Positions 11,626 through 59,214 of a stretch of DNA of 64,000 nucleotides are shown one piece after another. The notes beneath the pieces were generated by a model. It did no database searches and had not been told where the DNA came from. It saw only the letters and a list, made by a program, of their open reading frames with translations. Position 1 is the stretch's first letter; each line of letters starts with the position of its first letter. The translations under genes and the position numbers were made by a program. The DNA is from a virus. Taxonomy: Duplodnaviria; Heunggongvirae; Uroviricota; Caudoviricetes. Location: the IMG/VR virus record IMGVR_UViG_3300001605_000009; one strand, 5' to 3'.

Positions 11626-14600
11626 TTAAAAGAATGCTAGAAATGCTCCTAACTTCTTTATAGCGCCAATAATAGACCCTGTTATATAACTGATTGATAA
11701 ATAATTAGGACTTGTTCCTGTAAAAGAAAGACCCGTATTATTCCCTCCATTCGTACTATTAGCTCCTACATTCCACGCTGTTGACTTTTTAAGAATCGCC
11801 GGAGTAGTGTTCGTAGAAGTTATAGTTACTAAGGAACTTGAATCCCCACTTATATTGAAACTACTAAATGTCTGAGTTGATCCACCTTCAAATTTTATAG
11901 TAGTAGGTTTCACTGTATTACTCATAGTATCAAAAGTATTGTTACCATAGATTGACAGAGTGCTTCTTTGTAACGTGGTAGAAGATGGAGTAACAGTAAA
12001 GTTATTATATGTCTGGTCACCTCCATAGAATTGGTATTCTACTGGTATTGAATAGGTAGTACATATGATATTGGCCGTGCCTTTATCTAATGTAAGATTA
12101 GTGGGATCGCTTATATCCCAACCAAATATTGGTATTAATGCAGAATACGCGCTCACATCTATTAAATATTGAAGATATGTAAGGTTATATGGTACTATAG
12201 TCCAATTACCAGACCCCATTATCAGGGCTCTACTTGAAGTGTAACTACTACTAAATTCTGGTACAGTAACATCATATCCATTAGCATTAAATGTTCCGGC
12301 CTTTAATATCATCCCTCCAGTAGTGTTCAGAGTAGCGCCATAAGAATAATAGGCGAGATTTATAGCACTACCTAGCTGATAAATTGCTCCTGGACAGTTG
12401 AATGTTAGAAACGCGCCACAAGCATTACTTGTAGTGTTGATAGTTAATGTCTTAGTTCCAGAGGTTGCCAAGAAATTAACAAAGCCAGTCAGAACAGCAG
12501 AGTTGTTAGTCATATTACCGTAGATATTAACTTTTGATGCCATATTGTACGTACCAGTGAATCCTGTATCGTTATAGTTACGAATAGAAGGTACTCCACC
12601 TGTACTAAATGAGATTATATCTGAACCAGCAGTAATATTTATATCAAAACAGGTAGTCTCTGTCATTCCAGGAGCAAATATAGTTCTAGTCCCCGTGCTT
12701 CCAGAATAAGTCAAATTCACAGTTGGTATACCTGTGTAATTAAAGTTCCCACCACTTACCTCCATATAAAGTATAGTACCGTTATTACCAGTAATATTTA
12801 TAGCACTACTACCGAATGCAATAGCTGGAAAGTCATATATAGAGGCAGATACAGCAGGCTGTAGCGAAGAAACTGTAGCAGTAAATCCATTCAAGTCTAG
12901 TGTACCAGTATAAATAGATACAGTACCACTACAAGTCAGCGCTGAGCCTAGCTTAGTTGTACCAGAATTAGTGTTATATACATTTATACCTGTAGGCCAT
13001 GTAACTCCTGCAGAAGTAATAGTTTGAGTAGCCCCACTTTTATTAAATGTTACTACTCCTGTTCCTGTTATTGTTAGTCCAGAGTATAGAGTGACATTTC
13101 CATATATATCAGGAGATGTTGTACCAATAGCTAAAGTAGAAGCTGTTGTTCTAGAAGAGTAATTTAAAGTACCAATGTTCCAGTTGGCATTTATTGTAAG
13201 CGTACTTGCAACACCCGTATTAGTGAATGTTGCAGTATCTTGAGCTAATGGGAAGTTAGCTACTGCAGGAGTACCCGCTGCTGTTGTTGCCCAAGCTGTT
13301 GCAGTCCAAAGAGAATTACCCAATAAGTTCCAATACACAGTTTTAGGAGTAGATGTGGTAATATTAGTGTTGTTTCCACAATCTCCAAGCCTTATTCCTG
13401 TCCAAGTACCTGCAGCTCCTGCAGCTGTAATATCCCTGAAGTCTACATCAGTAAGGGCAGATATTGCATTTGCTGTTATTGTTCTAGCAGTACCTTGAGT
13501 ATTAGATTGTAGGAAAGTTCTATAGATTGCTGACGTGCCGGCCCCAATAGTAAGTGTACCGTTGACAGTTTGATTACCTCCACCAAATATGACTTGACTA
13601 ATACCCACACTTCCAGTACGTCCAGCTATATTTAAATTATTGAAAGTATTAACTCCAGTAATATTAGCAGTGTTAATTGCTGTATTATTAAATGTTACAT
13701 TATAGTATGTTTTATCCCCGCCAGTGAAGGTAGGAGTAGTAGAAGTTAATACTATTGTAGAGGTACCGGCATTTATAGTATTTGTAGACAGTGCTTGCCA
13801 TGCCGTTCCAGTAGCGGATAGTGTCACTGTAGAACCATTTAAGTTTATAGTGGCATACTCACTTGCATTAATAGTTGTTGCGGATACAGAGTAGTTAGAA
13901 GTGTCAAGATTTCCTACAAGATTTATAGCATTAGTTGAGGTAAATGCTCCGCCCAATAACACTGTAGTTGATGGGCTGTAGGATGCTATCGCGATAGGAA
14001 ATGATTTTCCTGCAGTATTTAAGGTTTGTGTTTTGGTATACCCCAAAAAGGCTAACTGTCCTGTAAGTGTTGTTGGCGTTACACCCGTTCCTAGTATAAA
14101 ATCACTGTATACAAATTGAGTACTACTACCAAAAGCTAGCGTCATTACGGTTGTTCTGGCAGACATATTGATAGTACCCGTATTATATAGACCATCAAAG
14201 GTAACAGTAGTTGCTGCGCCAGTATTATCAAATATAGCAGTATCTTGAGCCAATGGAAAGTTATTTACAGCAGGAGTTCCACCAGAACTGGTGGCCCAAC
14301 CATTAGCAGACCAATTTACAGTTCCAGTTAGATTCCAATAGACAGTTTTAGAGGACTCAAATGTAATATTAGAGTTATTCCCACAATCACCAAGTCTGGT
14401 ACCAGACCAATTTCCTGAGGTACCTGCTACTACAATATCTCTGAAGTCAACATCTACTAATGAACTAATCGCAGCAACAGTTAGCGTGATTTGGGTATCA
14501 AACACCTGACTAAGTAGCCAAGTTCTGTATGCTGGACCAGTTCCTGCTCCTATATTAAGAGTTCCATTAATAGTCTGATTAGCATTAAATTGTAAATAAT

Positions 14601-17600
14601 TAACCCCAGTAACTGTTCTTCCAGCAATCGTAAGATTGTTAAATACATTGCTACCTCTAATACTATTAACGACTGATTCAGCGGAACCACCTGAGGTAAA
14701 ACTTACATTATAATAGGTTTGTTCGCCTCCATTAAATGATTGACTGGCAGCACTCAAGTTAATCGTTGATGTTCCACTTGATAAAGTAAGACCTGTTGGT
14801 ACCGTAATATCCCACCCACCAGAAGATAAAGTAATAGTTGAAGACCCCAAAGTCAACGATCTGGTATTACTATTACTACTAGAAACAGATCCTGCAGTAA
14901 CATTAAAGTTACTAGTGCTGAACGAGCCGTTAGTTAGCGTTAATGTGTATGTACTTAAATTGATAGCGTCAGCAAGAGTCCACTCTCCGCCAATACCATT
15001 GAATGTAATTGGACACCCCAATGCTTTACCACTAGAAGTGATTATTTTACCGGCAGATGTTGATGCAAATGTTCTCACACCTGCGCCAGCAGTAACAGTC
15101 ATGCCTGTTGATAACGTCAGATTACCGTAGATTGTAATGGCACTATTTGGCCAAGTACCCGCAAAACCAGTAAATACTAGATTTCTTACGTTTCCAGTAA
15201 CAGTAGTAGAGCTTGTTCCTGCGGTGATATTAAACGATACACTGTTAGATTCAGATGGAGAACCCGCGATAATAGTTCTAGCTGTTGCAGTAGCGTTAGT
15301 TACGTTTACAATAGGAGTTCCTGTTACTGTCATATTGTATACGTTTGTAGCATCCCATACTGTACCAGTCCCATTAAGAGTTAAGGAGCCATAATTAAAA
15401 GCTAAGGTTCTTGCGCTGTTTGAATTTGTTATAAAAGCAGGACATGAATGATTATTTCCATTCAAATCTAAATATCCAGCCGCAAGTCTTATAGTACTAG
15501 TAGAAGTAGTACCAGTTGATAACTGACCAGTAAGAGTCCATCGTCCAAACAGTCCATTAAAAACTATAGGGAATCCTAGGGTTTTTCCATTTGGATTAAT
15601 AGTATTACCAGTATATGTTGATAAGAATGAAACAGTATTCGTACCAGCAGCCACTGTCATTCCAGTTGATACAGTAAGACTTCCATAAATTCCTAACGCT
15701 ACATTAGTCCATGAGCCTGCAAATCCAGTGAAGTCTAGGTTTTTTATTCTGTTATTAGCAGTGAACGTAACAGGGCCAGTTCCTGCAGTGATATTAAAGG
15801 AAAAAGCATAATCTTCCGACCATACTCCGGCAGAGATCGTCCTAGTAAGAGATGTAACGGCAGTGACATCTACTCTTCTTAGGCCAGAAGTAGTTAAATT
15901 AGTTACTGTAGCAGTATTCCAAATAGTACCAGTTCCCTCTAGTTTTAAATACCCAGTAGACCCAAACATAATAGACCTAGTATTAGAATTACTAGATGAA
16001 AAGGAATTTAGAGATAAAGAGTACTCATTTAAATCAAGTGTACCATTAGTTAGCGTAAGCGACCCCATTCCTGTATTAGTAACATTTACTTTTATTGTAC
16101 TGTTGTAGGCGTCTATATTAGTAATATTTGTAGGTTGATAGCCTACTAATTGGATTTTATTTACTCCGATATAATTTAAAGTACAGCCGATACCCGCAGA
16201 AACACCCATCATATTATTATTACTTCCACACCAGTAAGTAGTAGTCGTGCCATAGGATAAGGTAAAAAGAGTCGATCTAGCGGTGGTATCATAAGTACCA
16301 ATATACCAATTCTGATCAAGAGTAAGAGTACTCCCAGCACTATTGTCATCCACAATACACGTATCTTGTACTAATGGAAAATTAGCAGCATCTGGGGTGC
16401 CACCAGAAGTCAATGCCCAGCCTGGTGAAGACCAGTTACTAACTCCTGGACGGTTCCAATATACGGTTTTTGGCGCTGCAAATGTGATGAGAGAGTTTCC
16501 TCCTGCGTCACCTAAACTAGTGCCGGACCATGTAGCTGTCCCAGATCCTGTAATGTAGCGAAAGTCTACATTCGAAAGGTCCGTTGAAGCTGCGGTAATA
16601 ACTCTAGGGCTGCCTGTTTGGTTACTTTGTAGTAATGTTCGATTTAGTAGTTCAGTACTAGATACAGTTAATGTACTAGTAATTACTACATCACCACCTA
16701 AATATGTAGGCGTTACTCCTACTGAGTCCCTGGCTGGGATATTTAAATTAATAAAAGTTATGGTAGGAGAAGGACTATTAACTGAACTACCAATACTATA
16801 TCCAAATGTATTTGCAGTAAAATTAACAGTACCAAAACTCTGCCCATCTGGAAGAAAGTTTACAATAGCCGCAGTATGCGTACAATTAATAGTAGATGAA
16901 ATACCACTAAAAGTTAGCTCTGTTGAGTTAAAAGTTATAGGTGACTGCCCATTTAGTGTTACAGTAGAAGTACCTAATGTTATTGATCTAATGTTAGAAT
17001 TACTAGACGAAATACTGCCCGCAGTTACATTATAGTTACCTGTGTCAAACGAACCCTTAGTGACTGTGATTTGATTCGTTCCAATATTCAACGCATCTTG
17101 CAGAGTCCACCCACCACCAACACCATCAAAAGTAGCAGGGCCGTTTAATGTGACGCCATTAGATGTAATGGTCTTACCTGTAGAAGTGGCTGCGAATGTA
17201 AGTGATGTATACGCGGCTACTGTTTGACCAGTTCCAAGAGTCAGGTTTCCATATATAGTACCCGCTGTTGGAATCCATGCTCCACTAAACCCAGTGAAGT
17301 CTAGATTCTTAAAGGTACTCGTGCTGGTTGATACGTTTCCTGTTCCGGCTGTGACATTTACAGATGCTTCAGAGAGTGCACCTGTGGTAATTGTTCTGGC
17401 TGTTGCTGATGAGTTAGTCAGATTGACTGTAGGGAACCCCGATATAGCTATAGAAGAGGTCGTATTGAATACTGTGCCAGTTCCCGATAATGATACAATA
17501 CCCGATGTACCAAAATTTAGTGTTCTAGCAGACAGACCAGTAGAAACGAATAATCCCGTTGTGAGTGTGAAGTTATTCAGGTTTAATGTACCAGAGTTTA

Positions 17601-18600
17601 ACGTGGTAGTTCTAGTCGAACCTACGGTAAACGCATCCTGAAGTGTCCATACACCTGTACCATTAAAGTTAATGGGAAAATCTAATAATTTACCATTGGT
17701 TGTAATTGTTCTACTGACATTTGCAAAAAATGTCCAGGCTCTTGTACCCGCAGTCAGTATCATAGTAGGGGATAATATTAAATTTCCATATATGCTTATA
17801 GCAATATTACTTACAGTACCGCTAAATCCAGTAAAGTTTAAATTGTTCACGCGATTGTCTGCGGTGAAAGTAACAATATCTGTTCCGGCAGTAAAGTTAA
17901 AACTTAATTCAGTAGCATTCGCTCCCGCATTTATAGTTCTTGTCCCAGTAGATCCAGAATAAGTGCAGTTAATTGTCGGTGTTCCAGAAACTTTTAATCC
18001 AGTTTGAGTAGCTGCATCAAAAATAGTTGTACCAGAGCCAGTAAGCGTTAAGTCTCCAGTACCAAAGTTAAATGTTCTCGTAGTAGATCCGGAGATATTG
18101 GCTGTTAACGCGGTAAATTTATTAGTGCCTATCGATAGAGTACCCACCGTAAGGGTAAGTGTACTGCTCGTAGAAAATGCCCCGTTTAGGGTAACTGTAA
18201 TAGAGTTGCCATTTACTACTACAGGACTACTAATTATTGAAGTACCAGTATTACATATAGCAGTGGTACCATTGAAGGATAGTGAGCCTGTGTTTGTCCA
18301 ATTAATAGTTCCAGAAATAGTAAGTCCAGAAGTAGTCACAGATATATTACTTGATCCATTAAAAGTCAAAGTGCCTGCTGATGGGTTTGCCATATTAATA
18401 CCAAGAACTGATGTAGTAGCAGTTCTTGTTACTGTGTAGGATGCTCCAGACCCTGCAACATTAGACTCAGAGTCAAAAATGGCAACATCGGCAGTAGTTG
18501 GAACGGCAGCACCTCCAGTTCCTCCAGATGTAAGTGACCAATTAGTTGTGTTCGTAGCATCCCAGGTACCTGTGCCGCCTACCCAATATTTATTAGCCAT
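11626..18600 (-). CDS. giant repetitive Ser/Thr/Gly/Asn-rich structural protein (2324 residues), likely a tail fibre or adhesin with beta-helix-like modules
   Basis: A single ORF of 2324 residues. The module KTVYWNxxGxxxWSxxGWAxxxGGTPxxxNFPLxQDT occurs four times and the module NL(D/V)FTGF(S/A)G(T/A)W at least five times. Composition is low-complexity beta-rich. The gene lies next to small fibre-like genes. Confidence 0.8.
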   Translation of the reverse strand: MANKYWVGGTGTWDATNTTNWSLTSGGTGGAAVPTTADVAIFDSESNVAGSGASYTVTRTATTSVLGINMANPSAGTLTFNGSSNISVTTSGLTISGTINWTNTGSLSFNGTTAICNTGTSIISSPVVVNGNSITVTLNGAFSTSSTLTLTVGTLSIGTNKFTALTANISGSTTRTFNFGTGDLTLTGSGTTIFDAATQTGLKVSGTPTINCTYSGSTGTRTINAGANATELSFNFTAGTDIVTFTADNRVNNLNFTGFSGTVSNIAISIYGNLILSPTMILTAGTRAWTFFANVSRTITTNGKLLDFPINFNGTGVWTLQDAFTVGSTRTTTLNSGTLNLNNFTLTTGLFVSTGLSARTLNFGTSGIVSLSGTGTVFNTTSSIAISGFPTVNLTNSSATARTITTGALSEASVNVTAGTGNVSTSTSTFKNLDFTGFSGAWIPTAGTIYGNLTLGTGQTVAAYTSLTFAATSTGKTITSNGVTLNGPATFDGVGGGWTLQDALNIGTNQITVTKGSFDTGNYNVTAGSISSSNSNIRSITLGTSTVTLNGQSPITFNSTELTFSGISSTINCTHTAAIVNFLPDGQSFGTVNFTANTFGYSIGSSVNSPSPTITFINLNIPARDSVGVTPTYLGGDVVITSTLTVSSTELLNRTLLQSNQTGSPRVITAASTDLSNVDFRYITGSGTATWSGTSLGDAGGNSLITFAAPKTVYWNRPGVSNWSSPGWALTSGGTPDAANFPLVQDTCIVDDNSAGSTLTLDQNWYIGTYDTTARSTLFTLSYGTTTTYWCGSNNNMMGVSAGIGCTLNYIGVNKIQLVGYQPTNITNIDAYNSTIKVNVTNTGMGSLTLTNGTLDLNEYSLSLNSFSSSNSNTRSIMFGSTGYLKLEGTGTIWNTATVTNLTTSGLRRVDVTAVTSLTRTISAGVWSEDYAFSFNITAGTGPVTFTANNRIKNLDFTGFAGSWTNVALGIYGSLTVSTGMTVAAGTNTVSFLSTYTGNTINPNGKTLGFPIVFNGLFGRWTLTGQLSTGTTSTSTIRLAAGYLDLNGNNHSCPAFITNSNSARTLAFNYGSLTLNGTGTVWDATNVYNMTVTGTPIVNVTNATATARTIIAGSPSESNSVSFNITAGTSSTTVTGNVRNLVFTGFAGTWPNSAITIYGNLTLSTGMTVTAGAGVRTFASTSAGKIITSSGKALGCPITFNGIGGEWTLADAINLSTYTLTLTNGSFSTSNFNVTAGSVSSSNSNTRSLTLGSSTITLSSGGWDITVPTGLTLSSGTSTINLSAASQSFNGGEQTYYNVSFTSGGSAESVVNSIRGSNVFNNLTIAGRTVTGVNYLQFNANQTINGTLNIGAGTGPAYRTWLLSQVFDTQITLTVAAISSLVDVDFRDIVVAGTSGNWSGTRLGDCGNNSNITFESSKTVYWNLTGTVNWSANGWATSSGGTPAVNNFPLAQDTAIFDNTGAATTVTFDGLYNTGTINMSARTTVMTLAFGSSTQFVYSDFILGTGVTPTTLTGQLAFLGYTKTQTLNTAGKSFPIAIASYSPSTTVLLGGAFTSTNAINLVGNLDTSNYSVSATTINASEYATINLNGSTVTLSATGTAWQALSTNTINAGTSTIVLTSTTPTFTGGDKTYYNVTFNNTAINTANITGVNTFNNLNIAGRTGSVGISQVIFGGGNQTVNGTLTIGAGTSAIYRTFLQSNTQGTARTITANAISALTDVDFRDITAAGAAGTWTGIRLGDCGNNTNITTSTPKTVYWNLLGNSLWTATAWATTAAGTPAVANFPLAQDTATFTNTGVASTLTINANWNIGTLNYSSRTTASTLAIGTTSPDIYGNVTLYSGLTITGTGVVTFNKSGATQTITSAGVTWPTGINVYNTNSGTTKLGSALTCSGTVSIYTGTLDLNGFTATVSSLQPAVSASIYDFPAIAFGSSAINITGNNGTILYMEVSGGNFNYTGIPTVNLTYSGSTGTRTIFAPGMTETTCFDINITAGSDIISFSTGGVPSIRNYNDTGFTGTYNMASKVNIYGNMTNNSAVLTGFVNFLATSGTKTLTINTTSNACGAFLTFNCPGAIYQLGSAINLAYYSYGATLNTTGGMILKAGTFNANGYDVTVPEFSSSYTSSRALIMGSGNWTIVPYNLTYLQYLIDVSAYSALIPIFGWDISDPTNLTLDKGTANIICTTYSIPVEYQFYGGDQTYNNFTVTPSSTTLQRSTLSIYGNNTFDTMSNTVKPTTIKFEGGSTQTFSSFNISGDSSSLVTITSTNTTPAILKKSTAWNVGANSTNGGNNTGLSFTGTSPNYLSISYITGSIIGAIKKLGAFLAFF

Positions 18601-25003: not shown

Positions 25004-25397
25004 GGTACTTTTCCTTATTATCAGAAGAGAAATAAATACGCTCTTCTTCTTCAGAGAGAGGTCTACTCATTGGAGTATTCTTCTCGTCCCTCCAACACAG
25101 ATGGTTGGTATTCTCAAAAGGTATAAGCCAAGGTGTCATTAATTTCTCCGTGTAAGTGCGGCGGGTTCTGTTTCTAGGTTCCGCCAGACCCAAGAAGAAT
25201 CAAGCTACTAGAGCTAGACCTTCAAATGCTGAGTTATCGTTAGCATTTACTTTTTGTGGCTCTTTGCCAGTCAATAGTCTCGGCGTTCCCTATTACACGA
25301 AAATCGATCCCTGGTCGCCCCCATCATAGAATATCGGACTGTGTAGGTACCAATACACGAGACACTGATAAACGGTCAGGCTCTTCCCAATATTCTA

Positions 25398-25425
25398 TGG
25401 TGGAGGCGGCGGGAATTGAACCCGC
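25398..25425 (-). ncRNA. tRNA/tmRNA 3'-end-like element (T-arm, acceptor 3' strand and CCA) with no matching 5' half
   Basis: The minus strand reads GACGCGGG-TTCAATT-CCCGCCGCCTCCACCA. This matches the 3' end of bacterial tmRNA and tRNA closely. No complementary GGAGGCG was found within plausible distance. Confidence 0.4.
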
Positions 25426-25454
25426 GTCTTTTCGTCTTTATTGTCGGCTGTCAG

Positions 25455-25497
25455 CGACTATATACTCGTTATAACAAAAGTTACAACAAAAGTCAAG
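25455..25497 (-). promoter_or_regulatory. sigma70 promoter (TTGACT, 17-nt spacer, TATAAC) firing into the tRNA/tmRNA-like fragment
   Basis: The minus strand reads aaaaatatttcTTGACTtttgttgtaacttttgtTATAAC, about 45 nt upstream of the fragment. Confidence 0.5.
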
Positions 25498-25732
25498 AAA
25501 TATTTTTCAAGCGTTCGGCCTTAGCACGAAGATGCTCAGCTGGGGACATTCCGTAGTCCTGATGGTTAACAGAAATATTCGCTAGTACAAATCCAAGGTC
25601 TTTTCGCTCCTGATAGAACTGCTCACGCATCTTTCGCTTACGCTCTAGCTTCTGCTCACGAGTTTCTAGATTTGGGAAGTTGACTTGTCCGTTGGACTTT
25701 TGCTTCTGTACGACCTGTTCTGCTTCCTGCAC
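25493..25732 (-). CDS. hypothetical basic protein
   Basis: ORF with the promoter at 25830-25870 upstream. Confidence 0.4.
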   Translation of the reverse strand: MQEAEQVVQKQKSNGQVNFPNLETREQKLERKRKMREQFYQERKDLGFVLANISVNHQDYGMSPAEHLRAKAERLKNIS

Positions 25733-25899: not shown

Positions 25900-25950
25900 A
25901 ACCTAAAATAGCTCTTGACTTTTACCTTAACTTACTCTATATTACTTAAA
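25900..25950 (+). promoter_or_regulatory. sigma70 promoter with TTGACT, a 17-nt spacer and TATATT (the rightward member of a divergent pair)
   Basis: The plus strand reads aaaatagctcTTGACTtttaccttaacttactcTATATT at 25915-25943. Confidence 0.6.
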
Positions 25951-26070
25951 TGCAGCACAAATGCTAAACTTAATTTACGAGAAGCACATTAAATGAAAAG
26001 TAACTTAAGCGCGTAACCCTGAAGGTTAGTATTTGTGCTGTTAATTATAACAACTAAAAGGAAATAACTC

Positions 26071-26280
26071 TTGGGTAAAAAGAAGTTGAGGTCAAAGACC
26101 TCGTCTAAAGGTGAGCGTCGCAACGTAGCCGGTAGTTTTCAATACTGGTCAGTGCTAGATCGCGCACTATTCAAAGCCAAAGCACAGGCTGCTGGTAAGC
26201 GAGTGTGCCATACTATTGCAAATCCAGATAAGTCAGCAACTAATATGCCGTTCATTAGGGTTTGTAGCAGTGGAAAGTAA
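26071..26280 (+). CDS. hypothetical small basic protein with a TTG start
   Basis: ORF with the ribosome-binding site aaaaggaaat upstream. The call is uncertain. Confidence 0.3.
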   Translation: MGKKKLRSKTSSKGERRNVAGSFQYWSVLDRALFKAKAQAAGKRVCHTIANPDKSATNMPFIRVCSSGK

Positions 26281-26467
26281 CATTGTAGAGTTCCGGCCTA
26301 AAGTGGCTGAAGTAGTAGAAGAGTATGATCCAGTAGTTGACTTTGTTCATAATAACCTACTACCGTGGGCTATGAGTAATAATCTGGATATTAACTCTAT
26401 GAAGTTCAAGCTAAATGGGGCCACTATTATGGCCTGCCTACAAGGGATGTTACTAGATGACGTTTAA
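26216..26467 (+). CDS. hypothetical protein
   Basis: ORF only. Confidence 0.3.
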   Translation: MQIQISQQLICRSLGFVAVESNIVEFRPKVAEVVEEYDPVVDFVHNNLLPWAMSNNLDINSMKFKLNGATIMACLQGMLLDDV

Positions 26468-26867
26468 TAAGTTACATGAGGATGCAATCATTCCTCAATA
26501 CCAAACTAAGGGGTCTGCTGGTCTAGATCTTCACAGTATTGAAGCAGCCACACTTCAGCCAGGTAAGTACACATTGGTAGCCACCGGGCTATCAATTGAC
26601 CTACCAGAGAACACAGAGGGACAGGTTCGGTCCCGCTCTGGCCTTGCGGCTAAGCACGGTGTACAAGTTCTCAATAGCCCTGGAACTATCGACGAGGATT
26701 ATAAGGGAGAGATCAAGGTCATCCTACATAATGCCGGTGATAGTGTCTTTTCTATTGAGAAGGGAGACAGAATTGCACAGCTAGTCATTGCTCCAGTTTA
26801 TAAACTGGAAGGTTATGCACTAGATAATACACGAGAAGATAAAGGATTCGGGTCAACAGGCTTATGA
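26457..26867 (+). CDS. dut: dUTP diphosphatase (dUTPase)
   Basis: All five dUTPase motifs are present: GSAGLDL, RSRSGLA, GTIDEDYKGEI, GDRIAQL and FGSTG. Confidence 0.9.
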   Translation: MTFNKLHEDAIIPQYQTKGSAGLDLHSIEAATLQPGKYTLVATGLSIDLPENTEGQVRSRSGLAAKHGVQVLNSPGTIDEDYKGEIKVILHNAGDSVFSIEKGDRIAQLVIAPVYKLEGYALDNTREDKGFGSTGL

Positions 26868-27058
26868 GAGTAGAAATTAGAAACAACAACGTCGAACGAG
26901 GAATGCAAGTACTCAAGCGTAAGCTAATTGACGAAGGCGTGTTTAAAGAAATGGCCGAGCGCAGGCACTATGAGAAGCCTAGCGACAAGAAGCGCCGACT
27001 AAAGCGCGCAGCCATCACCAGGGAGAGACGCAGGGAACGTAGTCGTAATGATGCGTAA
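26864..27058 (+). CDS. ribosomal protein bS21-like (phage-encoded S21 homolog)
   Basis: A 64-residue basic protein. VEIRNNNVERGMQVLKRKL...FKEMAERRHYEKPSDKKRRLKRAA aligns with the bacterial S21 pattern (V.VR.NE...AL.RFKR..EK.G...E.RRR.FYEKP...RKR.K). Its ATG overlaps the dUTPase stop codon. Confidence 0.65.
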   Translation: MRVEIRNNNVERGMQVLKRKLIDEGVFKEMAERRHYEKPSDKKRRLKRAAITRERRRERSRNDA

Positions 27059-27064
27059 AACTGA

Positions 27065-27403
27065 GTGGATCAATGCATAAATGAAGTAGTTAATACAGTA
27101 TACGCCGAAAGTAGGGGTACTGGTGAAATGGGAATGAAAGCTGTAGTTCATGTAATAATGAATCGCAGCAAAGATCAAAAAGTTAGGCCTTGCGTTATAG
27201 TAAGACAACCTAACCAGTTCGCCAGAGGTAAGAGTAGACCTAGTGATCCAGCATGGCAGATGGCCAAAAAGTTGGTTCTAGAGCCTGGTAAAGATATTAC
27301 TAGAGGTGCTCGTTACTTCCATAATCTTACGGTTAAGCCTAGTTGGAGTTATCGCTTTAGAGTGACAATGCGATTAGGTAGGCATATATTTTATAAACCT
27401 TAA
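27065..27403 (+). CDS. cell wall hydrolase, SleB/CwlJ family (candidate endolysin)
   Basis: VYAESRGTGEMGMKAVVHVIMNRS matches the Hydrolase_2 signature (AEARGE...A.V.NR). A GTG start is likely. A rho-independent terminator follows the gene. Confidence 0.65.
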   Translation: MDQCINEVVNTVYAESRGTGEMGMKAVVHVIMNRSKDQKVRPCVIVRQPNQFARGKSRPSDPAWQMAKKLVLEPGKDITRGARYFHNLTVKPSWSYRFRVTMRLGRHIFYKP

Positions 27404-27408
27404 AATTA

Positions 27409-27443
27409 GGCTCGAAGGGAAACCTTCGGGCCTTTTCTTTTAC
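27409..27443 (+). terminator. rho-independent terminator
   Basis: GGCTCGAAGG-GAAA-CCTTCGGGCC followed by TTTTCTTTT. Confidence 0.7.
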
Positions 27444-28328: not shown

Positions 28329-29006
28329 TTAATCCTTGTCTAAATTTAGTATGTCTTCTTTAAATAGCTCTGTGTTACCCTTTGACTTTAAAAAGTCTTT
28401 TACATATATTCTTTTGTCTTTGAACTTCTTTAGTATTTCTGTTTCTTTATCTAAAGCGTCCTGTCCTCTTATAAAGAACTCTCCAAATAATATTTTAATA
28501 TCCCTATCTTTGTCCTGTCTAAACCTCTGCTCAATAGATTTGTTTGTAATACCAACCTTATAATACTCATTATCTATTTTAATATAGTACAATATAGCAG
28601 ATTTAGTAGTATCAAAAGTATAGGAGGCCGGAGAATTAAACAGAGAACAAATTGGGCACCCACTACCTGATAGTATATTTGTAGGTGTTGAACTCCACTC
28701 ATGTCCGTCTGTGCACTTGTGAAGTAAATGTGTGTATGCATTTATATAAGGGTCAAGAACCTCTATTCCTCTGGTCTTTAATTGTAATTGATATGTTGAA
28801 TGCTCTTTTTTAACTCCGCCTTTGCAAGTAGGACAACCCTTACCTTGCAGTACACTATTAGGCCTAGCTAACCACGTGTGGCCTGCTATACACTCATGCA
28901 TAATAGGGGTACTACTATTAATATAAGTCTGTATGGGGTAAGCATCTGCTTCTATATTTAGAAGTCTATTTTCGTATTCTTCGTGTGTTAGTGTCTTCTT
29001 AGCCAT
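28329..29006 (-). CDS. GIY-YIG homing endonuclease with dual zinc-binding N-terminal repeats (paralog of the ORF at 6237..6968)
   Basis: HECIAGHTW...GKGCPTC, HKCTDGHEW...GSGCPIC, and then AILYYIKIDNEYYKVGIT. Confidence 0.7.
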   Translation of the reverse strand: MAKKTLTHEEYENRLLNIEADAYPIQTYINSSTPIMHECIAGHTWLARPNSVLQGKGCPTCKGGVKKEHSTYQLQLKTRGIEVLDPYINAYTHLLHKCTDGHEWSSTPTNILSGSGCPICSLFNSPASYTFDTTKSAILYYIKIDNEYYKVGITNKSIEQRFRQDKDRDIKILFGEFFIRGQDALDKETEILKKFKDKRIYVKDFLKSKGNTELFKEDILNLDKD

Positions 29007-41528: not shown

Positions 41529-42014
41529 TCATTGTGGACCACAAGGGTCAACAATGATTTGGTGGAATCCCTCATCTAATGTGGGCGGCTGATAGTTACG
41601 ATCCATCTGCCTAAGAATATGCTCTGGAATCCGTTTATCAGGCCTGCTAGCAAGTCGTTCTGCCCAATTATCAGGAATTGGAAAAACAACTGCCGTAAAC
41701 TTATGGTTTGGCAATGCCTTAAACAACCGTGCGCGACTCTTTACTGTTAAGTTTGTACGATCAATGTAAACATCTTCGTTACACCCTTCTAGAAGTTCCC
41801 AAAAATGTGCCTCTGCTTTCTTGATGTATTCTGGGAACACATTATTATATGTTTGTCCTCTAAGCTTAGCAAATAACTCGATAAAATCATCACTAGAAGC
41901 TACAAAGATATTATCTGGTCGGCTGGCAAGCCACGTAGACTTGCCAACTCCAGGAAGACCCACTAAAACATACGCATTAGGCATTATAAATAACTCCTGG
42001 AAACCATTCTGCAC
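41529..42014 (-). CDS. P-loop polynucleotide kinase-like protein (kinase domain of T4 Pnk-type)
   Basis: Walker A motif GLPGVGKST. The gene is small and sits next to the RNA ligase genes. Confidence 0.6.
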   Translation of the reverse strand: MQNGFQELFIMPNAYVLVGLPGVGKSTWLASRPDNIFVASSDDFIELFAKLRGQTYNNVFPEYIKKAEAHFWELLEGCNEDVYIDRTNLTVKSRARLFKALPNHKFTAVVFPIPDNWAERLASRPDKRIPEHILRQMDRNYQPPTLDEGFHQIIVDPCGPQ

Positions 42015-43191
42015 GGATTTCTTCGTACTTACTAGTCTTAGCTAGATTCTTGCGAATAGTATTATAAATTTTTTGCTCACAAACACTAACGGCATCTACG
42101 TACAGAACCTCGTCCCACATAGCAAACGCTATAGATCTATTAAGCCCACTCATTTTATTCGCATATGTGGTCGCGAAAGTCTTCCGATCCATACCACCGA
42201 TACGCCGACAGTTAGATACTTGTGAAACAATAGAGAGTGCCAAAGGATGAATAACTTTATTAAAGTCATTCTCGAACTGAGAAAGACGATCACGCTCTTC
42301 TTGTGGAAGATGCGCTTTCACGTCGTCTAGCTTTTGATCTAGAATAAGTTCAACAATGTGGCGATCCTGTAGAATACGCTCCTTAGCCTTGTGAATCTGC
42401 ACGTACCAGTCACACTTTAGCTTTACCATGTGTCCGTTGTCAAAACGCACAACGAAGCCTTCAGTGTCCTGAAGATCACGAGTGTGCTCAATAAGACCGT
42501 TGATGTGCTCCTGGGACGGGAAGGATTTCACAATTGGGATATTATACTTCTCGATAATAGGATAGTTATTATGAAGGTTGATAATATAACTACCGCGCTC
42601 CATATTACGAATAGCTGTAAGAATCAGACGATCCTCTGGATAGTCTAGAACGATGCGCTGCTTACGTGAGCACCACTCAAAAATAGGAGTAAACCCATTC
42701 TCGATAAGATCACGAGAGAAGTCAATGTAGTGTGGATTGTTATTCACAAACTCCTCAACAGGCTTCGCCACATCAGTAGCACCCATCTTAGTACCGAATA
42801 CTAGAACAGCACGATTAAAGAATGGGGCAATCATTGATCCATCCAGTTTATCCAGAATGATGTGATCCTCATACAGAGGAACATTCTCGGTCTCTGGTCG
42901 TTCGTTTACGTTGAAGAACTTGTGATAAGGACGGCGAAGAATATCGCCCGTTTCGTTGTCAAAGATAATACCCCGACATTCACGACGAGTAGCAGCGTGC
43001 TTAGCATCCGTAAAAGCTAGCTTGTTAAGCTGCTCGCTCCACTCAATCACAGGCGGAAAAGTATCCTCAAACATCACATTGTAGTTGATAACGGTATAAC
43101 CGTCTTTAACAGCCACTACAAATTCACTACGACCTTCAATCGCAGGAAGCACATCACTGATGTTACGAATTACTGGGAATTGATAGTTCAT
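41977..43191 (-). CDS. RNA ligase 1 (T4 RnlA-like)
   Basis: ECRGIIFDNETGDILRRPYHKFFNVNERPET aligns with the T4 Rnl1 segment [34 protein letters not shown]. The nucleotidyltransferase lysine motif DKLDGSM is present. Confidence 0.75.
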   Translation of the reverse strand: MNYQFPVIRNISDVLPAIEGRSEFVVAVKDGYTVINYNVMFEDTFPPVIEWSEQLNKLAFTDAKHAATRRECRGIIFDNETGDILRRPYHKFFNVNERPETENVPLYEDHIILDKLDGSMIAPFFNRAVLVFGTKMGATDVAKPVEEFVNNNPHYIDFSRDLIENGFTPIFEWCSRKQRIVLDYPEDRLILTAIRNMERGSYIINLHNNYPIIEKYNIPIVKSFPSQEHINGLIEHTRDLQDTEGFVVRFDNGHMVKLKCDWYVQIHKAKERILQDRHIVELILDQKLDDVKAHLPQEERDRLSQFENDFNKVIHPLALSIVSQVSNCRRIGGMDRKTFATTYANKMSGLNRSIAFAMWDEVLYVDAVSVCEQKIYNTIRKNLAKTSKYEEIRAEWFPGVIYNA

Positions 43192-43199
43192 TTGTCTCT

Positions 43200-43262
43200 C
43201 CTCTTTGAACCTTTATAGCCCAAAAACGAAAAAAAGTCAAGGCCTATTTTTGGCCTTGACTA
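43200..43262 (-). promoter_or_regulatory. overlapping terminator hairpin and promoter (TTGACT, 17-nt spacer, TATAAA)
   Basis: The minus strand reads GTCAAGGCC-loop-GGCCTTGAC followed by TTTTTTTCG. The TTGACT inside the 3' arm of the hairpin is followed by a 17-nt spacer, TATAAA, a ribosome-binding site and the ATG of the Rnl1-like gene. Confidence 0.55.
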
Positions 43263-43531
43263 ATTCTTTTGTATCGCTGTCGTAACGTAGAAATGACTAT
43301 TTCCCATAGAAACCAAGCACCAAATCCGCCAAATAAGACGTAGGCAGCTAGTGTCTCTCCTAAAAGGTATTCTATACCTAGTTCTACTCCAATTGATAGT
43401 CCACCGACTACTACCACAATAGCTAAAGTTCCTGCTAGAGCCACTCCTAGTAAGATAAAGAAGTCTTTACTTGGAGTAAGTGTCTTTTGTAATGCTTTCC
43501 AATTCATTCTGGCCCACTCCCGTTGCCCCAA
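43244..43531 (-). CDS. small membrane protein
   Basis: Two hydrophobic helices. Confidence 0.4.
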   Translation of the reverse strand: MGQREWARMNWKALQKTLTPSKDFFILLGVALAGTLAIVVVVGGLSIGVELGIEYLLGETLAAYVLFGGFGAWFLWEIVISTLRQRYKRISQGQK

Positions 43532-44160
43532 GCCTTGACAGGCCCAACATATCCTACTACTTCCCAGCGATCCTTAATACGAGCTTCTACTTCGTCGAAG
43601 GACAGAGGCTCGTAGTTAGTGTGCTCTACAGATACACAGAGATAACGCGGGTCAGGAACAGATACTGACTTATATTCACTAGGGTGGGAACTATGGTAAT
43701 CGCTCCAGCCTTTGGATACCATTTTATGCCTAGTCTGCATTACTTCATTGGCATGAAGGTGCCCATGCACGTTAACCTTAAATCGGTCAGTTACGCAGTC
43801 TGGATGCAGCGGAATATGGCTAAGAATAAACTTATCCACAAACACACGAACACCATACATCTTTTCAAAGCCAACTTCCCGATAGTACTTATCATGAAAA
43901 ATATCATGATTACCGCGTACTAGACGCTTCTTACCATTAAGACGTTTTACTAGCTCTAGTGAAGGCTTCTTGATGACAACATCACCAAGATGGTAGACGG
44001 TGTCCTGCGGGCTTACTTTAGCATTCCAACGCTCGATCATGGCCTCGTCCATTTCTTCGTTAGAAGAGAACGGACGTAGAGGATCCCCATTGGGAAGCTT
44101 AAACTTCTGCCACGAATTAGTGTGCCCGAAATGGGTATCACTTATAACAAAGCTGCTCAT
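43504..44160 (-). CDS. calcineurin-like metallophosphoesterase (candidate RNA 2',3'-cyclic phosphodiesterase or 3'-phosphatase in the RNA-repair cluster)
   Basis: Phosphoesterase motifs DTHFGH, GDVV, GNHD and HGHLH. Confidence 0.65.
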   Translation of the reverse strand: MSSFVISDTHFGHTNSWQKFKLPNGDPLRPFSSNEEMDEAMIERWNAKVSPQDTVYHLGDVVIKKPSLELVKRLNGKKRLVRGNHDIFHDKYYREVGFEKMYGVRVFVDKFILSHIPLHPDCVTDRFKVNVHGHLHANEVMQTRHKMVSKGWSDYHSSHPSEYKSVSVPDPRYLCVSVEHTNYEPLSFDEVEARIKDRWEVVGYVGPVKAWGNGSGPE

Positions 44161-44383
44161 TCATATACTCCAATATATCATATAGTACGCTGGTACTGAG
44201 ACCTGTTCGACCTGTTCTTAGATCATCTCGAATACGATCACGAATCATTAGCTCCGCGGCTTCTGCATTCGTGAACATAAAATCATTAAGCTCTTGAAAC
44301 TTCTCAATTTCCTCAAATGAGGGCTCTGGATTATAAGGCTCTCGTGGTTTGTAGGGACCTAAGTCTCTATCATAGTCTGTCAT
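44138..44383 (-). CDS. hypothetical protein (start set to the ATG that overlaps the lipoprotein stop)
   Basis: The ORF in the track begins with TTG. An ATG six nucleotides downstream overlaps the lipoprotein stop as ATGA. Confidence 0.35.
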   Translation of the reverse strand: MTDYDRDLGPYKPREPYNPEPSFEEIEKFQELNDFMFTNAEAAELMIRDRIRDDLRTGRTGLSTSVLYDILEYMNEQLCYK

Positions 44384-44556
44384 GAGCAAGTATCTGGCAT
44401 ATCATAACCCGCAGAATACTTAGGGGCTATCCCATTGTCTGACCCCTGCCAGTATGCTACACCATCTATGCATATAATTTCATATTTAGGTTTAGGGGTT
44501 GGCTCACTGCAACCCGAGAGTAGACCTAGACATAGAATAATTACTGGATATTTCAT
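44380..44556 (-). CDS. small lipoprotein (58 residues, lipobox LLSGC)
   Basis: MKYPVIILCLGLLSGCSEPTPKPKY... It is below the 60-residue ORF cutoff of the track. Its ATG overlaps the Rnl2-like stop as ATGA. Confidence 0.45.
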   Translation of the reverse strand: MKYPVIILCLGLLSGCSEPTPKPKYEIICIDGVAYWQGSDNGIAPKYSAGYDMPDTCS

Positions 44557-45569: not shown

Positions 45570-45577
45570 TCTTATCT

Positions 45578-45640
45578 CCTTAACAAAACAAATATAGCCC
45601 ATCAACCGAGAAAAGTCAAGGGCTATTGAAAGGCTTGGTC
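45578..45640 (-). promoter_or_regulatory. sigma70 promoter with TTGACT, a 17-nt spacer and TATATT
   Basis: The minus strand reads caatagcccTTGACTtttctcggttgatgggcTATATT. Confidence 0.55.
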
Positions 45641-45775
45641 CATAAAGTCGTAATATGCCTGTGTAATCAAAAGTGATTAGTGTATAATCATCTGACATGA
45701 AGGCATACTCGTTTATCTCGTCTGCGTAGCACCTAGGTTCCGTCCGGTCCATACGTAAATATCATCCGGCATTGT

Positions 45776-49959: not shown

Positions 49960-50144
49960 CTCCTAATAATTGCTTGATGACCACAATTAGGGCAGTCTAC
50001 CCACTCGTGTCCATCAGGACCGCCACTGTAGTCCCTACCACGGTACTCTTTCACTTCACAGAGCTTGTACTCTAGAATAGAAGCACATCCGCGACAGGTA
50101 ATCCGCTTCACAGCTGACTCGTCTCGTCCTACAACTTTAACCAT
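49953..50144 (-). CDS. zinc-ribbon protein
   Basis: CRGC...CPNCGH motif. Confidence 0.4.
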   Translation of the reverse strand: MVKVVGRDESAVKRITCRGCASILEYKLCEVKEYRGRDYSGGPDGHEWVDCPNCGHQAIIRSW

Positions 50145-58310: not shown

Positions 58311-58339
58311 AAACTTTTAGCAGTGCTGGTCGGCTTTGG

Positions 58340-59175: not shown

Positions 59176-59214
59176 AGTTGGGGCAAGTAATCATTACTTG
59201 CCCCGTTTCTGTTT

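What the first reader, a model, noticed from the sequence alone, without database searches (positions are those of the whole stretch)
26457..27403. Phage-encoded ribosomal protein bS21 homolog, translationally coupled between dUTPase and a SleB-like lysin
The ORF at 26864-27058 has the length, basic composition and conserved pattern of bacterial S21 (...RRHYEKPSDKKRRLKRAA...). Its ATG overlaps the dUTPase stop. Phage S21 copies are thought to bias ribosomes toward phage mRNAs. Here the gene sits on one of the few plus-strand units, which has its own consensus promoter (25915-25943).
Basis: partly seen in the sequence, partly recalled or inferred. Interest (0 to 1): 0.6.

Follow-up and report, generated by a model that had tools for sequence, protein, structure and literature searches.

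The report
Phage-encoded ribosomal protein S21 gene
A virus of bacteria, distantly related to phage T5, carries its own well-conserved copy of the small ribosomal protein S21; this is real, but it is a further example of something already described in many aquatic phages.

Summary
ORF 26864-27058 (+) is a full-length bS21: Pfam PF01165 scores 56.9 bits (cut-off 27), TIGR00030 44.2 (cut-off 28.95), and it matches PHROG 'ribosomal protein S21'. Every PDB fold match is a bS21/bS21m chain. Its ATG overlaps the stop of an intact trimeric dUTPase (ATGA). A Hydrolase_2 gene follows 6 nt after its stop.

The unit is larger than reported. It is a five-gene plus-strand operon (26071-27403) with a sigma70-like promoter and an intrinsic terminator. 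The operon is conserved in 14 related metagenomic loci and, in reduced form, in 3 distant ones. The genome is an uncultivated T5-like phage (PolA 44% identical to T5) with 16 tRNAs and a permuted tmRNA gene beside the operon.

The S21 is under strong purifying selection (dN/dS about 0.08). It is of the alphaproteobacterial type. Phage genes here use Shine-Dalgarno sites.

The most likely role is that the protein enters host 30S subunits early in infection and sustains or biases initiation. That step is inferred, not shown.

Viral bS21 is well documented (Mizuno 2019; Chen 2022). This is therefore a new member of a known kind, in a new genomic and probably temporal context. The 'lysin' label is doubtful.

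The parts
25915..25943 (+). Sigma70-type promoter of the S21 operon (TTGACT-17 nt-TATATT)
   Evidence: Found by the consensus scan. The -35 TTGAC(T/A)TT and the -10 TATATT/TAATAT/TAAAAT are kept at the same spacing upstream of the cassette in 7 distinct relatives, although the flanks differ. It belongs to a class of 23 TTGACW-N16-18-TAWAWT sites in the window, against 0.48 expected. An identical promoter faces the other way at 25858-25830.
25952..26040 (+). 5' leader with a long stem (arms 25952-25966 and 26026-26040)
   Evidence: RNA fold gives -28.3 kcal/mol, z = -2.74. The sequence is not conserved: relatives have other 5' hairpins or a small Myb-like ORF here. A transcript-stabilising 5' hairpin is likely; this is inference.
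26071..26280 (+). ORF1: 69-aa very basic protein, TTG start with AAAGGAA Shine-Dalgarno site, function unknown
   Evidence: Conserved at the head of the cassette in all related loci. It has 31 homologues, all metagenomic and without Pfam domains. There is no Pfam, PHROG, NCBIfam or PADLOC hit. The AF2 model (pLDDT 74) shows a disordered basic N-terminus, a helix and a beta-hairpin. No PDB fold match was found.
26270..26467 (+). ORF2: 65-aa acidic protein (GTG start inferred from relatives), function unknown
   Evidence: Conserved in 14 close loci at 52-76% identity and absent from the distant relatives L019-L021. It overlaps ORF1 by 11 nt and the dUTPase by 11 nt. No family hit.
26457..26867 (+). 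Trimeric dUTPase (136 aa)
   Evidence: PF00692 110.8 bits; TIGR00576 166 bits against a cut-off of 102.55; phrog_135. All five dUTPase motifs can be read in the translation. The best phage matches are Brevundimonas, Rhizobium and Caulobacter phages at 51-56%.
26864..27058 (+). Ribosomal protein bS21 homologue (64 aa, 22 K+R, net charge about +11)
   Evidence: PF01165 56.9 bits (cut-off 27), TIGR00030 44.2 (cut-off 28.95), phrog_21469. PDB bS21/bS21m chains match at E 5e-5 to 1e-2. The AF2 model has pLDDT 85.3 and all 10 Foldseek hits are bS21 chains. There are 221 close homologues. dN/dS is about 0.08. The ATGA overlap with the dUTPase stop is visible in the sequence.
27065..27403 (+). Hydrolase_2 (SleB/CwlJ-type catalytic domain only) protein, 112 aa, GTG start 6 nt after the S21 stop, no Shine-Dalgarno site
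   Evidence: PF07486 53.3 bits (cut-off 27). TIGR02869 SleB scores only 30.3 against a cut-off of 236.5. It is 39-41% identical to the 'sleB' gene of T5-family phages. In Bf23 that gene sits among predicted early promoters and tRNAs, and no dUTPase is annotated within 4 kb.
27408..27433 (+). Intrinsic terminator of the operon
   Evidence: An 11-bp GC-rich stem followed by a T-run. Fold -20.6 kcal/mol, z = -3.96.
25109..25500 (-). Neighbouring permuted (two-piece, alpha-type) tmRNA gene, tag ANDNSAFEGLALVA; a conserved neighbour, not part of the operon
   Evidence: Detected by ARAGORN. Rfam RF04321 scores 90.8 bits (GA 47) and RF01849 79.7 (GA 50). A tmRNA lies at the equivalent place in L001-L003, L005-L006, L011-L017, L019 and L020.

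Best explanation
This is a functional phage copy of ribosomal protein bS21, of alphaproteobacterial ancestry. It is fixed as a core gene of an uncultivated lineage of T5-like phages of roughly 105-127 kb. It is the fourth gene of a tightly packed five-gene operon: basic ORF1, acidic ORF2, dUTPase, bS21, Hydrolase_2. The operon is read from a strong host-type sigma70 promoter and ended by an intrinsic terminator. Only ORF1 has a good Shine-Dalgarno site. The other genes overlap or abut, so bS21 is most likely made by ribosomes that terminate on the dUTPase stop and restart at the overlapping ATG. Because the promoter is of the class that drives the replication and nucleotide-metabolism genes, and because T5 homologues of the neighbours lie in the early region, expression is probably early. 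The protein most likely occupies the bS21 site on the host 30S platform next to the anti-Shine-Dalgarno tail of 16S rRNA. Cellular bS21 is loosely bound and exchangeable at this site. There the phage copy would top up or replace host bS21, so that initiation on the phage's Shine-Dalgarno-led mRNAs is maintained or favoured. The phage's tRNAs, tmRNA and RNA ligases would keep the rest of the translation apparatus running. Shown: family membership, phage context, operon anatomy, conservation, purifying selection, alpha-type affinity, Shine-Dalgarno use by the phage. Inferred: coupling, early timing, incorporation into ribosomes, any selectivity, and the host.
For: Family membership. Phage context: DNA polymerase A 44% identical to T5/Bf23 over its full length; DnaB-like helicase, primase, NAD ligase and two RNA ligases; 16 tRNAs; IMG/VR relatives. 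Operon conservation: the same five genes occur in 14 loci and all 14 have the ATGA overlap. Three distant relatives keep [small ORF]-[dUTPase or MazG-like pyrophosphatase]-[S21]-[Hydrolase_2]. Selection: median pN is 0.11 with synonymous sites saturated (pS 0.87), and dN/dS is about 0.08. Promoter: conserved in relatives and part of a 23-member class against 0.48 expected. Terminator. Coupling: there is no Shine-Dalgarno site before the dUTPase, S21 or hydrolase starts, whereas 49% of crude ORF starts in the window have one against 10% of control positions. Alpha type: a profile of the phage family scores an alphaproteobacterial S21 at 67 bits and the HTVC008M S21 at 65.5, against 31-39 for mitochondrial, Bacteroidetes-like, Lactococcus, E. 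coli and one further PDB bS21 (9hig). In an exhaustive search of 1.84 billion representatives, 137 of the 148 best non-family hits are closest to the alphaproteobacterial reference and none to the E. coli, Lactococcus or Bacteroidetes-like references. Published precedent: HTVC008M bS21 enters E. coli 70S ribosomes (PMC6375957).
Against: No expression, ribosome-binding or host data exist for this phage, so timing and incorporation rest on analogy. In the only functional test of a viral bS21, ribosomes carrying it translated at about 5% of control (PMC6375957). That result fits inhibition as well as incompatibility with E. coli ribosomes. The alpha-type tmRNA and S21 do not prove an alphaproteobacterial host: phage Melnitz infects OM43 yet carries an alpha-type tmRNA (PMC9004378). 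The cellular reference set used for typing the S21 was small: one named alphaproteobacterial MAG, E. coli and partial PDB cores. In distant relatives S21 has its own start with an SD-like motif, so coupling to the dUTPase is not essential to its function.
Confidence: 0.6

Rival explanations
1. Host shut-off: the phage bS21 enters host ribosomes and disables them, or disables initiation on host mRNAs. It would act as a translation inhibitor rather than a helper.
For: Ribosomes carrying HTVC008M bS21 gave about 5% of control translation in vitro (PMC6375957). Probable early expression from a strong sigma70 promoter is when shut-off functions act.
Against: The phage needs the same ribosomes for its own Shine-Dalgarno-led genes. 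It also invests in tRNAs, tmRNA and RNA ligases that keep translation going. The in vitro result came from a heterologous pairing of a SAR11 phage protein with E. coli ribosomes. The core rRNA-binding motifs are conserved like those of a working bS21.
Confidence: 0.15
2. Extraribosomal role: the small basic protein acts as an RNA chaperone or partner for a phage RNA, for example the adjacent tmRNA or large structured RNAs such as GOLLD in relatives. It might also regulate its own operon rather than serve as a ribosome subunit.
For: bS21 has been proposed as a component of the OLE ribonucleoprotein complex (title of PMC12054373; paper not read). The conserved neighbour is a tmRNA gene and one relative carries GOLLD RNA. 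The C-terminal tail varies between sublineages.
Against: The conservation pattern is that of ribosomal bS21: L17, K18, G25 and K38-P39-S40 are invariant across phage and cellular sequences. GOLLD is absent from the window. No direct evidence supports any RNA partner.
Confidence: 0.1
3. Passenger gene: a recently captured host rpsU with no role in infection, or the contig is cellular or chimeric.
For: Host-derived genes are often picked up transiently by phages. One homologue is labelled as coming from a Hymenobacter MAG (P0116).
Against: The gene sits at the same place in phage genomes so diverged that synonymous sites are saturated, with dN/dS about 0.08. It remains where the upstream dUTPase has been replaced by a non-homologous pyrophosphatase. 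Every context examined is the same T5-like phage backbone. No cellular rpsU neighbours are present.
Confidence: 0.03

Closest known systems
bS21 of Pelagibacter phage HTVC008M (AGE60443; Mizuno et al. 2019, PMC6375957)
   Same: A phage-encoded, short, very basic bS21 of alphaproteobacterial type. It is 49% identical over 59 aligned residues (49.5 bits by phmmer; 65.5 bits against the profile of this family). The same hypothesis of replacing the exchangeable host bS21 applies.
   Different: HTVC008M is a T4-like myovirus (Kyanoviridae) of SAR11. There S21 sits between a CobS-like gene and hypothetical or heat-shock genes, not in a dUTPase-hydrolase operon. The present phage is T5-like, has about 42% G+C and no cultured relative.
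bS21 of freshwater Bacteroidetes phages (Chen et al. 2022, PMC9723584)
   Same: A viral bS21 conserved across a phage lineage from aquatic metagenomes, with a conserved core and a variable C-terminal tail.
   Different: In those phages the gene lies in the structural/terminase module and is expressed late. It is Bacteroidetes-like and keeps the aromatic residue that stacks on the anti-SD in SD-less hosts. Here the gene is in a nucleotide-metabolism/early-type operon, is alpha-type, nearly always lacks an aromatic residue in the tail, and the phage uses Shine-Dalgarno sites.
Cellular alphaproteobacterial bS21 (rpsU), e.g. Stellaceae MAG DATJVP010000053
   Same: It shares the core signature V-x-V-R-(D/N)-N-(N/D)-V ... 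LK(K/R)K(L/M)..EG.F.EM ... YEKPS. Identity is 46% to the MAG sequence and 50-56% to the best unnamed alpha-type representatives.
   Different: The cellular gene lies in a high-G+C chromosome near infA and a sigma-factor gene. The phage family forms its own tight cluster (58-94% identity to the window protein among the 120 listed homologues) with a distinctive RRLKRAA...RERRRER tail.
bS21 paralogues of Francisella (Trautmann et al. 2022, PMC9578407; only the abstract was seen)
   Same: A functional analogy. Swapping one bS21 homologue for another changes ribosome composition and thereby gene expression. This is how a phage bS21 would have to work to bias translation.
   Different: Those are chromosomal paralogues in a gammaproteobacterial pathogen. 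There is no phage and no evidence of shared descent beyond the family.
Early-region genes of phage T5/Bf23 (Demerecviridae): sleB-like cell wall hydrolase, dut, tRNA cluster
   Same: The hydrolase is 39-41% identical to T5-family sleB and PolA is 44% identical. Both have many tRNAs and strong sigma70 promoters.
   Different: The tblastn search with this S21 found no match in any T5-family record. In Bf23, sleB has no dUTPase annotated within 4 kb. T5 was not checked for a tmRNA gene here.

Membership tests
Bacterial ribosomal protein bS21 (Pfam PF01165 / TIGR00030) | Profile HMM score above the curated cut-offs over the full model length | tested here: met
   PF01165 scores 56.9 bits against 27, covering model positions 2-55 of 55. 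TIGR00030 scores 44.2 against 28.95, covering 2-58 of 58. phrog_21469 'ribosomal protein S21' matches at E 1.6e-12.
Bacterial ribosomal protein bS21 (Pfam PF01165 / TIGR00030) | Small (about 55-75 aa), strongly basic protein with the conserved (Y/F)EKP(S/T) core | tested here: met
   The protein has 64 aa, 15 R + 7 K against 11 D/E, and HYEKPS at residues 35-40 (read). K38, P39 and S40 are invariant in an alignment with cellular-type sequences.
Bacterial ribosomal protein bS21 (Pfam PF01165 / TIGR00030) | Extended helical fold like bS21 in solved ribosomes | tested here: met
   The AF2 model has pLDDT 85.3 with helices 10-24, 26-34 and 39-63. All 10 Foldseek PDB matches are bS21/bS21m chains. 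The best has probability 0.99 and TM about 0.5, but its E-value is only 0.012, as expected for a short non-globular protein.
Bacterial ribosomal protein bS21 (Pfam PF01165 / TIGR00030) | Binds the 30S platform next to the 3' end of 16S rRNA | not testable with these tools
   This needs ribosome fractionation with mass spectrometry, or cryo-EM. The only precedent is HTVC008M bS21 in E. coli 70S (PMC6375957).
Virus-encoded bS21 (auxiliary translation gene of phages) | Encoded on a phage genome, not a cellular chromosome | tested here: met
   The window holds T5-like PolA, DnaB-like helicase, primase, NAD ligase, RNA ligases and 16 tRNAs. The same cassette occurs on IMG/VR contigs and on contigs of roughly 105-111 kb. 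No structural genes lie in this window, so the virion type is inferred from T5 similarity.
Virus-encoded bS21 (auxiliary translation gene of phages) | Retained under purifying selection within a viral lineage | tested here: met
   Over 105 pairs of genes, median pN is 0.11 and pS 0.87 (saturated). dN/dS is about 0.08 in the 39 pairs with finite dS.
Trimeric dUTPase (PF00692 / TIGR00576) | HMM above cut-off and the five conserved motifs | tested here: met
   PF00692 scores 110.8 bits and TIGR00576 166.1 against 102.55. The motifs SAGLDL, RSRSG, GTIDEDYKGE, RIAQLV and GFGSTG can be read.
Spore cortex-lytic enzyme SleB (TIGR02869) / phage endolysin | Equivalog-level match to SleB; or a position in a lysis cassette with a holin | tested here: not met
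   TIGR02869 scores 30.3 bits against a cut-off of 236.5, so only the Hydrolase_2 catalytic domain is present (PF07486, 53.3 bits). No holin or spanin is adjacent. The T5-family homologue lies among predicted early promoters, away from genes annotated as lysis genes. It belongs to the Hydrolase_2 domain family; a role as the lysis enzyme is not supported.
T5-like phages (Demerecviridae) | Shared replication module and genome organisation with T5 | tested here: inconclusive
   PolA is 44% identical over 100% of its length to T5, Bf23 and others and sleB is 39-41% identical. There is no nucleotide-level match to any of 50,697 phage records. Structural genes and terminal repeats were not examined. 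It is related at about family level or beyond.
Two-piece (permuted) tmRNA, alphaproteobacterial type (Rfam RF04321 / RF01849) - neighbour gene | Covariance-model score above the gathering threshold, with the tag reading frame after the acceptor piece | tested here: met
   RF04321 scores 90.8 bits (GA 47) and RF01849 79.7 (GA 50). ARAGORN calls a tmRNA (flagged 'tmRNA*') whose tag ANDNSAFEGLALVA is encoded at positions 247-291 of the gene, as expected for a permuted tmRNA.

The most novel reading that the evidence does not exclude
In this T5-like lineage, ribosome remodelling may be an early programme rather than a late one. On this reading, a sigma70-driven, translationally coupled operon delivers phage bS21 from the first minutes of infection. 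It lies back-to-back with the promoter of the unit that contains a two-piece tmRNA. The co-conserved, lineage-specific basic ORF1 protein (disordered Lys/Arg-rich N-terminus plus a small alpha/beta domain) could be a new ribosome- or rRNA-binding partner of phage bS21. Together with 16 tRNAs and two RNA ligases, this would amount to a compact translation-takeover kit in a phage of roughly 105-127 kb. Timing and context would differ from the late-expressed bS21 of Bacteroidetes phages.
Probability: 0.15. Interest if true: 0.55.

Novelty: new member of a known kind. Interest (0 to 1): 0.3.

Why it matters
Viral bS21 is the most common ribosomal protein gene in phages. It made up 88% of viral ribosomal-protein detections, on 1310 genomes and contigs, in Mizuno et al. 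2019. Its function in infection has still never been shown. This locus adds a well-defined case: a core gene of a widespread uncultivated T5-like lineage. It has clear operon anatomy, a conserved host-type promoter and strong purifying selection, and it sits among SD-using genes next to a tmRNA. Because the protein is alpha-type, it could be tested in tractable alphaproteobacteria such as Caulobacter or Sinorhizobium. The contrast with Bacteroidetes phages (late structural module, SD-less hosts) suggests that phage bS21 may serve different ends in different hosts. None of this changes the current picture, so the value is incremental.

Tried and rejected
1. Megablast of 14 kb around the locus against 50,697 phage records found nothing, so no cultured close relative exists.

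2. ORF1 identity remains unknown. There were no hits in Pfam, NCBIfam, PHROGs or PADLOC. The only weak tblastn hit was to a Rhizobium phage hypothetical protein (E 0.02). The AF2 model had no significant PDB fold match.

3. A conserved regulatory RNA in the 5' leader was rejected. The window's long stem is not conserved in sequence or length among relatives, which carry other hairpins or a small ORF.

4. A Bacteroidota host, suggested by a 'Hymenobacter MAG' label on homologue P0116, was rejected. The phage uses Shine-Dalgarno sites and the S21 is alpha-type. That contig is 3.9 kb and is most likely a mis-binned phage fragment; this was not checked directly.

5. Organism names for the closest homologues could not be obtained through cluster look-ups.

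6. The genome-contig scan returned only one cellular S21, because it needs exact 8-residue peptide matches.

7. GOLLD RNA, found in relative L014, was looked for in the window and is absent.

8. A look-up of the 99%-identical ORF1 protein P0121, to find the source contig, failed.

9. The supplements of Mizuno 2019 contain none of the four IMG sample numbers searched, nor the terms 'dUTPase' or 'T5-like'.
Full report
**Observation.**
The reported features are all present.
- The dUTPase ORF runs 26457-26867, the 64-codon S21 ORF 26864-27058, and a Hydrolase_2 ORF 27065-27403.
- The S21 ATG (26864-26866) shares three bases with the dUTPase stop TGA (26865-26867).
- A TTGACT-17-TATATT promoter-like site lies at 25915-25943.
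- An 11-bp GC-rich hairpin with a T-run at 27408-27433 closes the unit (fold z = -3.96).
- In a crude gene call of the window, 107 ORFs are on the minus strand and 14 on the plus strand. Most of the 14 are spurious ORFs lying over tRNA or tmRNA genes, so this is one of only about two real plus-strand units.

**Identity of the ORF.**
- PF01165 scores 56.9 bits (cut-off 27) over essentially the whole model.
- TIGR00030 scores 44.2 bits (cut-off 28.95).
- The PHROG family annotated 'ribosomal protein S21' matches at E 1.6e-12.
- A sequence search of the PDB returns only bS21 and mitochondrial bS21m chains.
- An AlphaFold model built on a family alignment is confident (pLDDT 85.3) and consists of three helices.
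- All ten Foldseek matches in the PDB are bS21/bS21m chains in ribosome structures. The best has probability 0.99, although E-values are weak, as expected for a short non-globular protein.
- The protein has 22 Lys/Arg in 64 residues and the HYEKPS core.

**The neighbours.**
- The upstream gene is an intact trimeric dUTPase. PF00692 scores 110.8 bits, TIGR00576 scores 166 bits, and all five motifs are readable.
- The downstream gene has only the Hydrolase_2 catalytic domain (PF07486, 53.3 bits). It fails the SleB equivalog model (30.3 bits against a cut-off of 236.5).
- The hydrolase's closest phage relatives are the 'sleB' genes of T5-family phages (39-41% identity).
- In Bf23 that gene lies among predicted early promoters and tRNA genes, and no dUTPase is annotated within 4 kb. 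Calling it a lysin is therefore not justified.

**The unit is larger than reported.**
- Two small ORFs precede the dUTPase. ORF1 is 26071-26280 (69 aa, very basic, TTG start behind AAAGGAA). ORF2 is 26270-26467 (65 aa, acidic; the GTG start is taken from relatives).
- The junctions between the five genes are an 11-nt overlap, an 11-nt overlap, a 4-nt overlap and a 6-nt gap.
- Only ORF1 has a good Shine-Dalgarno site. The dUTPase, S21 and hydrolase starts have none. This is the anatomy expected for translational coupling; coupling itself is inferred.

**What the genome is.**
- The window encodes a DNA polymerase A that is 44% identical over its full length to that of T5, Bf23 and related phages.
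- It also encodes a DnaB-like helicase, a primase, an NAD-dependent ligase, two RNA ligases, NAMPT and a NadR-like enzyme.
- It carries 16 tRNA genes.
- No nucleotide-level match exists in 50,697 phage records.
- It is therefore a distant, uncultivated relative of T5-like phages.
- Directly upstream of the S21 operon, read from a mirror-image promoter (25858-25830), lies a unit that ends in a permuted, alphaproteobacterial-type tmRNA gene at 25109-25500. RF04321 scores 90.8 bits and RF01849 79.7 bits.

**Conservation.**
- The S21 protein has 221 close homologues in metagenomes. The 120 listed share 58-94% identity with it.
- Every context examined is the same phage backbone.
- In 14 loci, all five cassette genes are present in the same order, all with the ATGA overlap.
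- Three more distant relatives keep [small ORF]-[pyrophosphatase]-[S21]-[Hydrolase_2]. In one of them the trimeric dUTPase is replaced by a PRA-PH/MazG-like enzyme. In two, a minus-strand gene is inserted before the hydrolase. In these three, S21 has its own start preceded by an SD-like motif.
- The tmRNA gene is also retained in most relatives.
- The promoter's -35 and -10 elements are conserved at fixed spacing while the flanks diverge.
- The promoter belongs to a class of 23 TTGACW-N16-18-TAWAWT sites in the window, against 0.48 expected by chance. Several of these sit upstream of replication and nucleotide-metabolism genes.
- Across 105 gene pairs, S21 shows median pN 0.11 while synonymous sites are saturated (pS 0.87). 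dN/dS is about 0.08 where dS is finite. The gene is functional and old in this lineage.

**Origin and host.**
- A profile of the phage family scores the one named alphaproteobacterial S21 available (a Stellaceae MAG, in a cellular context with infA and a sigma-factor gene) at 67 bits. It scores the Pelagibacter phage HTVC008M S21 at 65.5 bits.
- The same profile scores a mitochondrial, a Bacteroidetes-like, a Lactococcus and an E. coli sequence, plus one further PDB bS21 (9hig), at only 31-39 bits.
- An exhaustive HMMER search of 1.84 billion cluster representatives found 2617 hits. Beyond the phage family, the best (50-56% identity) carry the VRDNNV..ALRALKKK.QREG.FREMK..YEKPS signature.
- Of the 148 top representatives, 137 are closest to the alphaproteobacterial reference and 11 to HTVC008M. 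None is closest to the E. coli, Lactococcus or Bacteroidetes-like references.
- The dUTPase is closest to those of Brevundimonas, Rhizobium and Caulobacter phages, and the tmRNA is alpha-type.
- Shine-Dalgarno-like motifs precede 49% of crude ORF starts against 10% of control positions. This argues against an SD-less Bacteroidota host.
- An alphaproteobacterial host is the best guess. The Melnitz case, an alpha-type tmRNA in a phage of OM43, shows such markers can mislead (PMC9004378).

**Mechanism.**
From established knowledge, bS21 lies on the 30S platform beside the anti-Shine-Dalgarno tail and is needed for initiation on natural mRNAs. It is also one of the loosely bound, exchangeable ribosomal proteins (as summarised in PMC6375957 and PMC9723584).
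- The most likely reading is that the phage protein, made early from a host-type promoter, enters host 30S subunits. There it maintains or biases initiation on the phage's SD-led messages.
- This would fit alongside the phage's tRNAs, tmRNA and RNA ligases.
- Incorporation has been shown only for HTVC008M bS21 in E. coli, where the resulting ribosomes were nearly inactive. A shut-off role therefore remains a serious rival.
- An extraribosomal RNA-binding role is possible but unsupported.
- A passenger gene is excluded by the conservation data.

**Comparison with the known, and novelty.**
- Viral bS21 is well established. It is the commonest virus-encoded ribosomal protein, is found mostly in aquatic lytic phages, and is under purifying selection (PMC6375957).
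- In freshwater Bacteroidetes phages it lies in the structural module and is expressed late (PMC9723584).
- Phage two-piece tmRNAs are also known (PMC9004378).
- What differs here is the lineage (T5-like), the operon (dUTPase-S21-Hydrolase_2 behind two small lineage-specific ORFs), the probable early timing, and the alpha-type sequence in an SD-using phage.
- I found no paper describing this lineage, but the searchable library is incomplete.
- Verdict: a real finding and a correct interpretation, a new member of a known kind, of modest interest.

Noticed in passing
window 25109-25500 (-): A permuted (two-piece) alphaproteobacterial-type tmRNA gene with tag ANDNSAFEGLALVA lies about 0.5 kb from the S21 operon promoter. 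It is conserved in most related loci, with varying tags (ANDNDVAFALAA, ANDNDSFADIRLAA). Phage two-piece tmRNAs are known from marine myophages (PMC9004378); their presence in T5-like phages was not checked here.
   Followed up: partly
L014 11373-11818 (-), IMGVR_UViG_3300032092_000229: A relative of this phage carries a full-length GOLLD RNA (RF02032, 210.8 bits, GA 150) beside three tRNA genes, about 5 kb from its S21 operon. The window has no GOLLD at the equivalent tRNA region.
   Followed up: partly
window 58300-63900, both strands: There are repeated back-to-back divergent promoter pairs about 60 nt apart. The plus-strand sites read TTGACA..CCTGCTAAAAT and the minus-strand sites TTGACAA..TGCTATAAT (58717/58779, 60608/60672, 62883/62947, and others). 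The long ORFs in this region are all on the minus strand, so the plus-strand promoters may drive small ORFs or antisense RNAs.
   Followed up: no
L001, L002, L011-L016, about 150 nt upstream of ORF1; window 25950-25967: In several relatives the leader of the S21 operon holds an apparently leaderless small ORF that looks Myb/SANT-like by eye (MQYKKRPWTDEERHILKRYYKL...). Its ATG lies about 7 nt after the -10 box. The window keeps only a 5-codon remnant (ATGCAGCACAAATGCTAA) and has a long hairpin instead.
   Followed up: partly
L019 3450-4001 (+), JGI 3300020109 contig of 111 kb: In a distant relative, the trimeric dUTPase upstream of S21 is replaced at the same position by a PF01503 PRA-PH (MazG-like) pyrophosphatase whose stop overlaps the S21 ATG (TAATG). 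This looks like non-homologous replacement of the same function.
   Followed up: no
window 11626-18600 (-): A 2324-aa ORF next to a cluster of seven tRNA genes has no PHROG or Pfam match at all.
   Followed up: no
window 28329-29006 (-); L020 4219-4905 (-): A 225-aa protein with DUF4379 zinc-finger, CapR and weak MUG113 (T5orf172-like) matches lies near the operon. In relative L020 a 228-aa gene with faint DUF723/DUF4379 matches is inserted between S21 and the hydrolase. This suggests a mobile, homing-type element that moves around this region.
   Followed up: no
window 41977-45752, 47116-48492, 50137-51189 (-): The phage encodes both T4 Rnl1-like and Rnl2-like RNA ligases, a probable tRNA-repair function. 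It also encodes NAMPT and a NadR-like NMN adenylyltransferase/Nudix protein, a probable NAD salvage function. These fit a theme of keeping host translation and metabolism running.
   Followed up: no
P0116 (homologue list): A 63%-identical S21 of this phage family is labelled in NCBI as '30S ribosomal protein S21 [Hymenobacter sp.]' from a 3.9-kb MAG contig. It is probably a phage fragment binned into a bacterial MAG. Its context was not inspected.
   Followed up: no
window 26071-26073 and the same position in all related loci: ORF1 starts with TTG (TTG GGT AAR) in every relative examined, behind a conserved AAAGGAA. A rare start codon is therefore strictly conserved at the head of the operon.
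   Followed up: no
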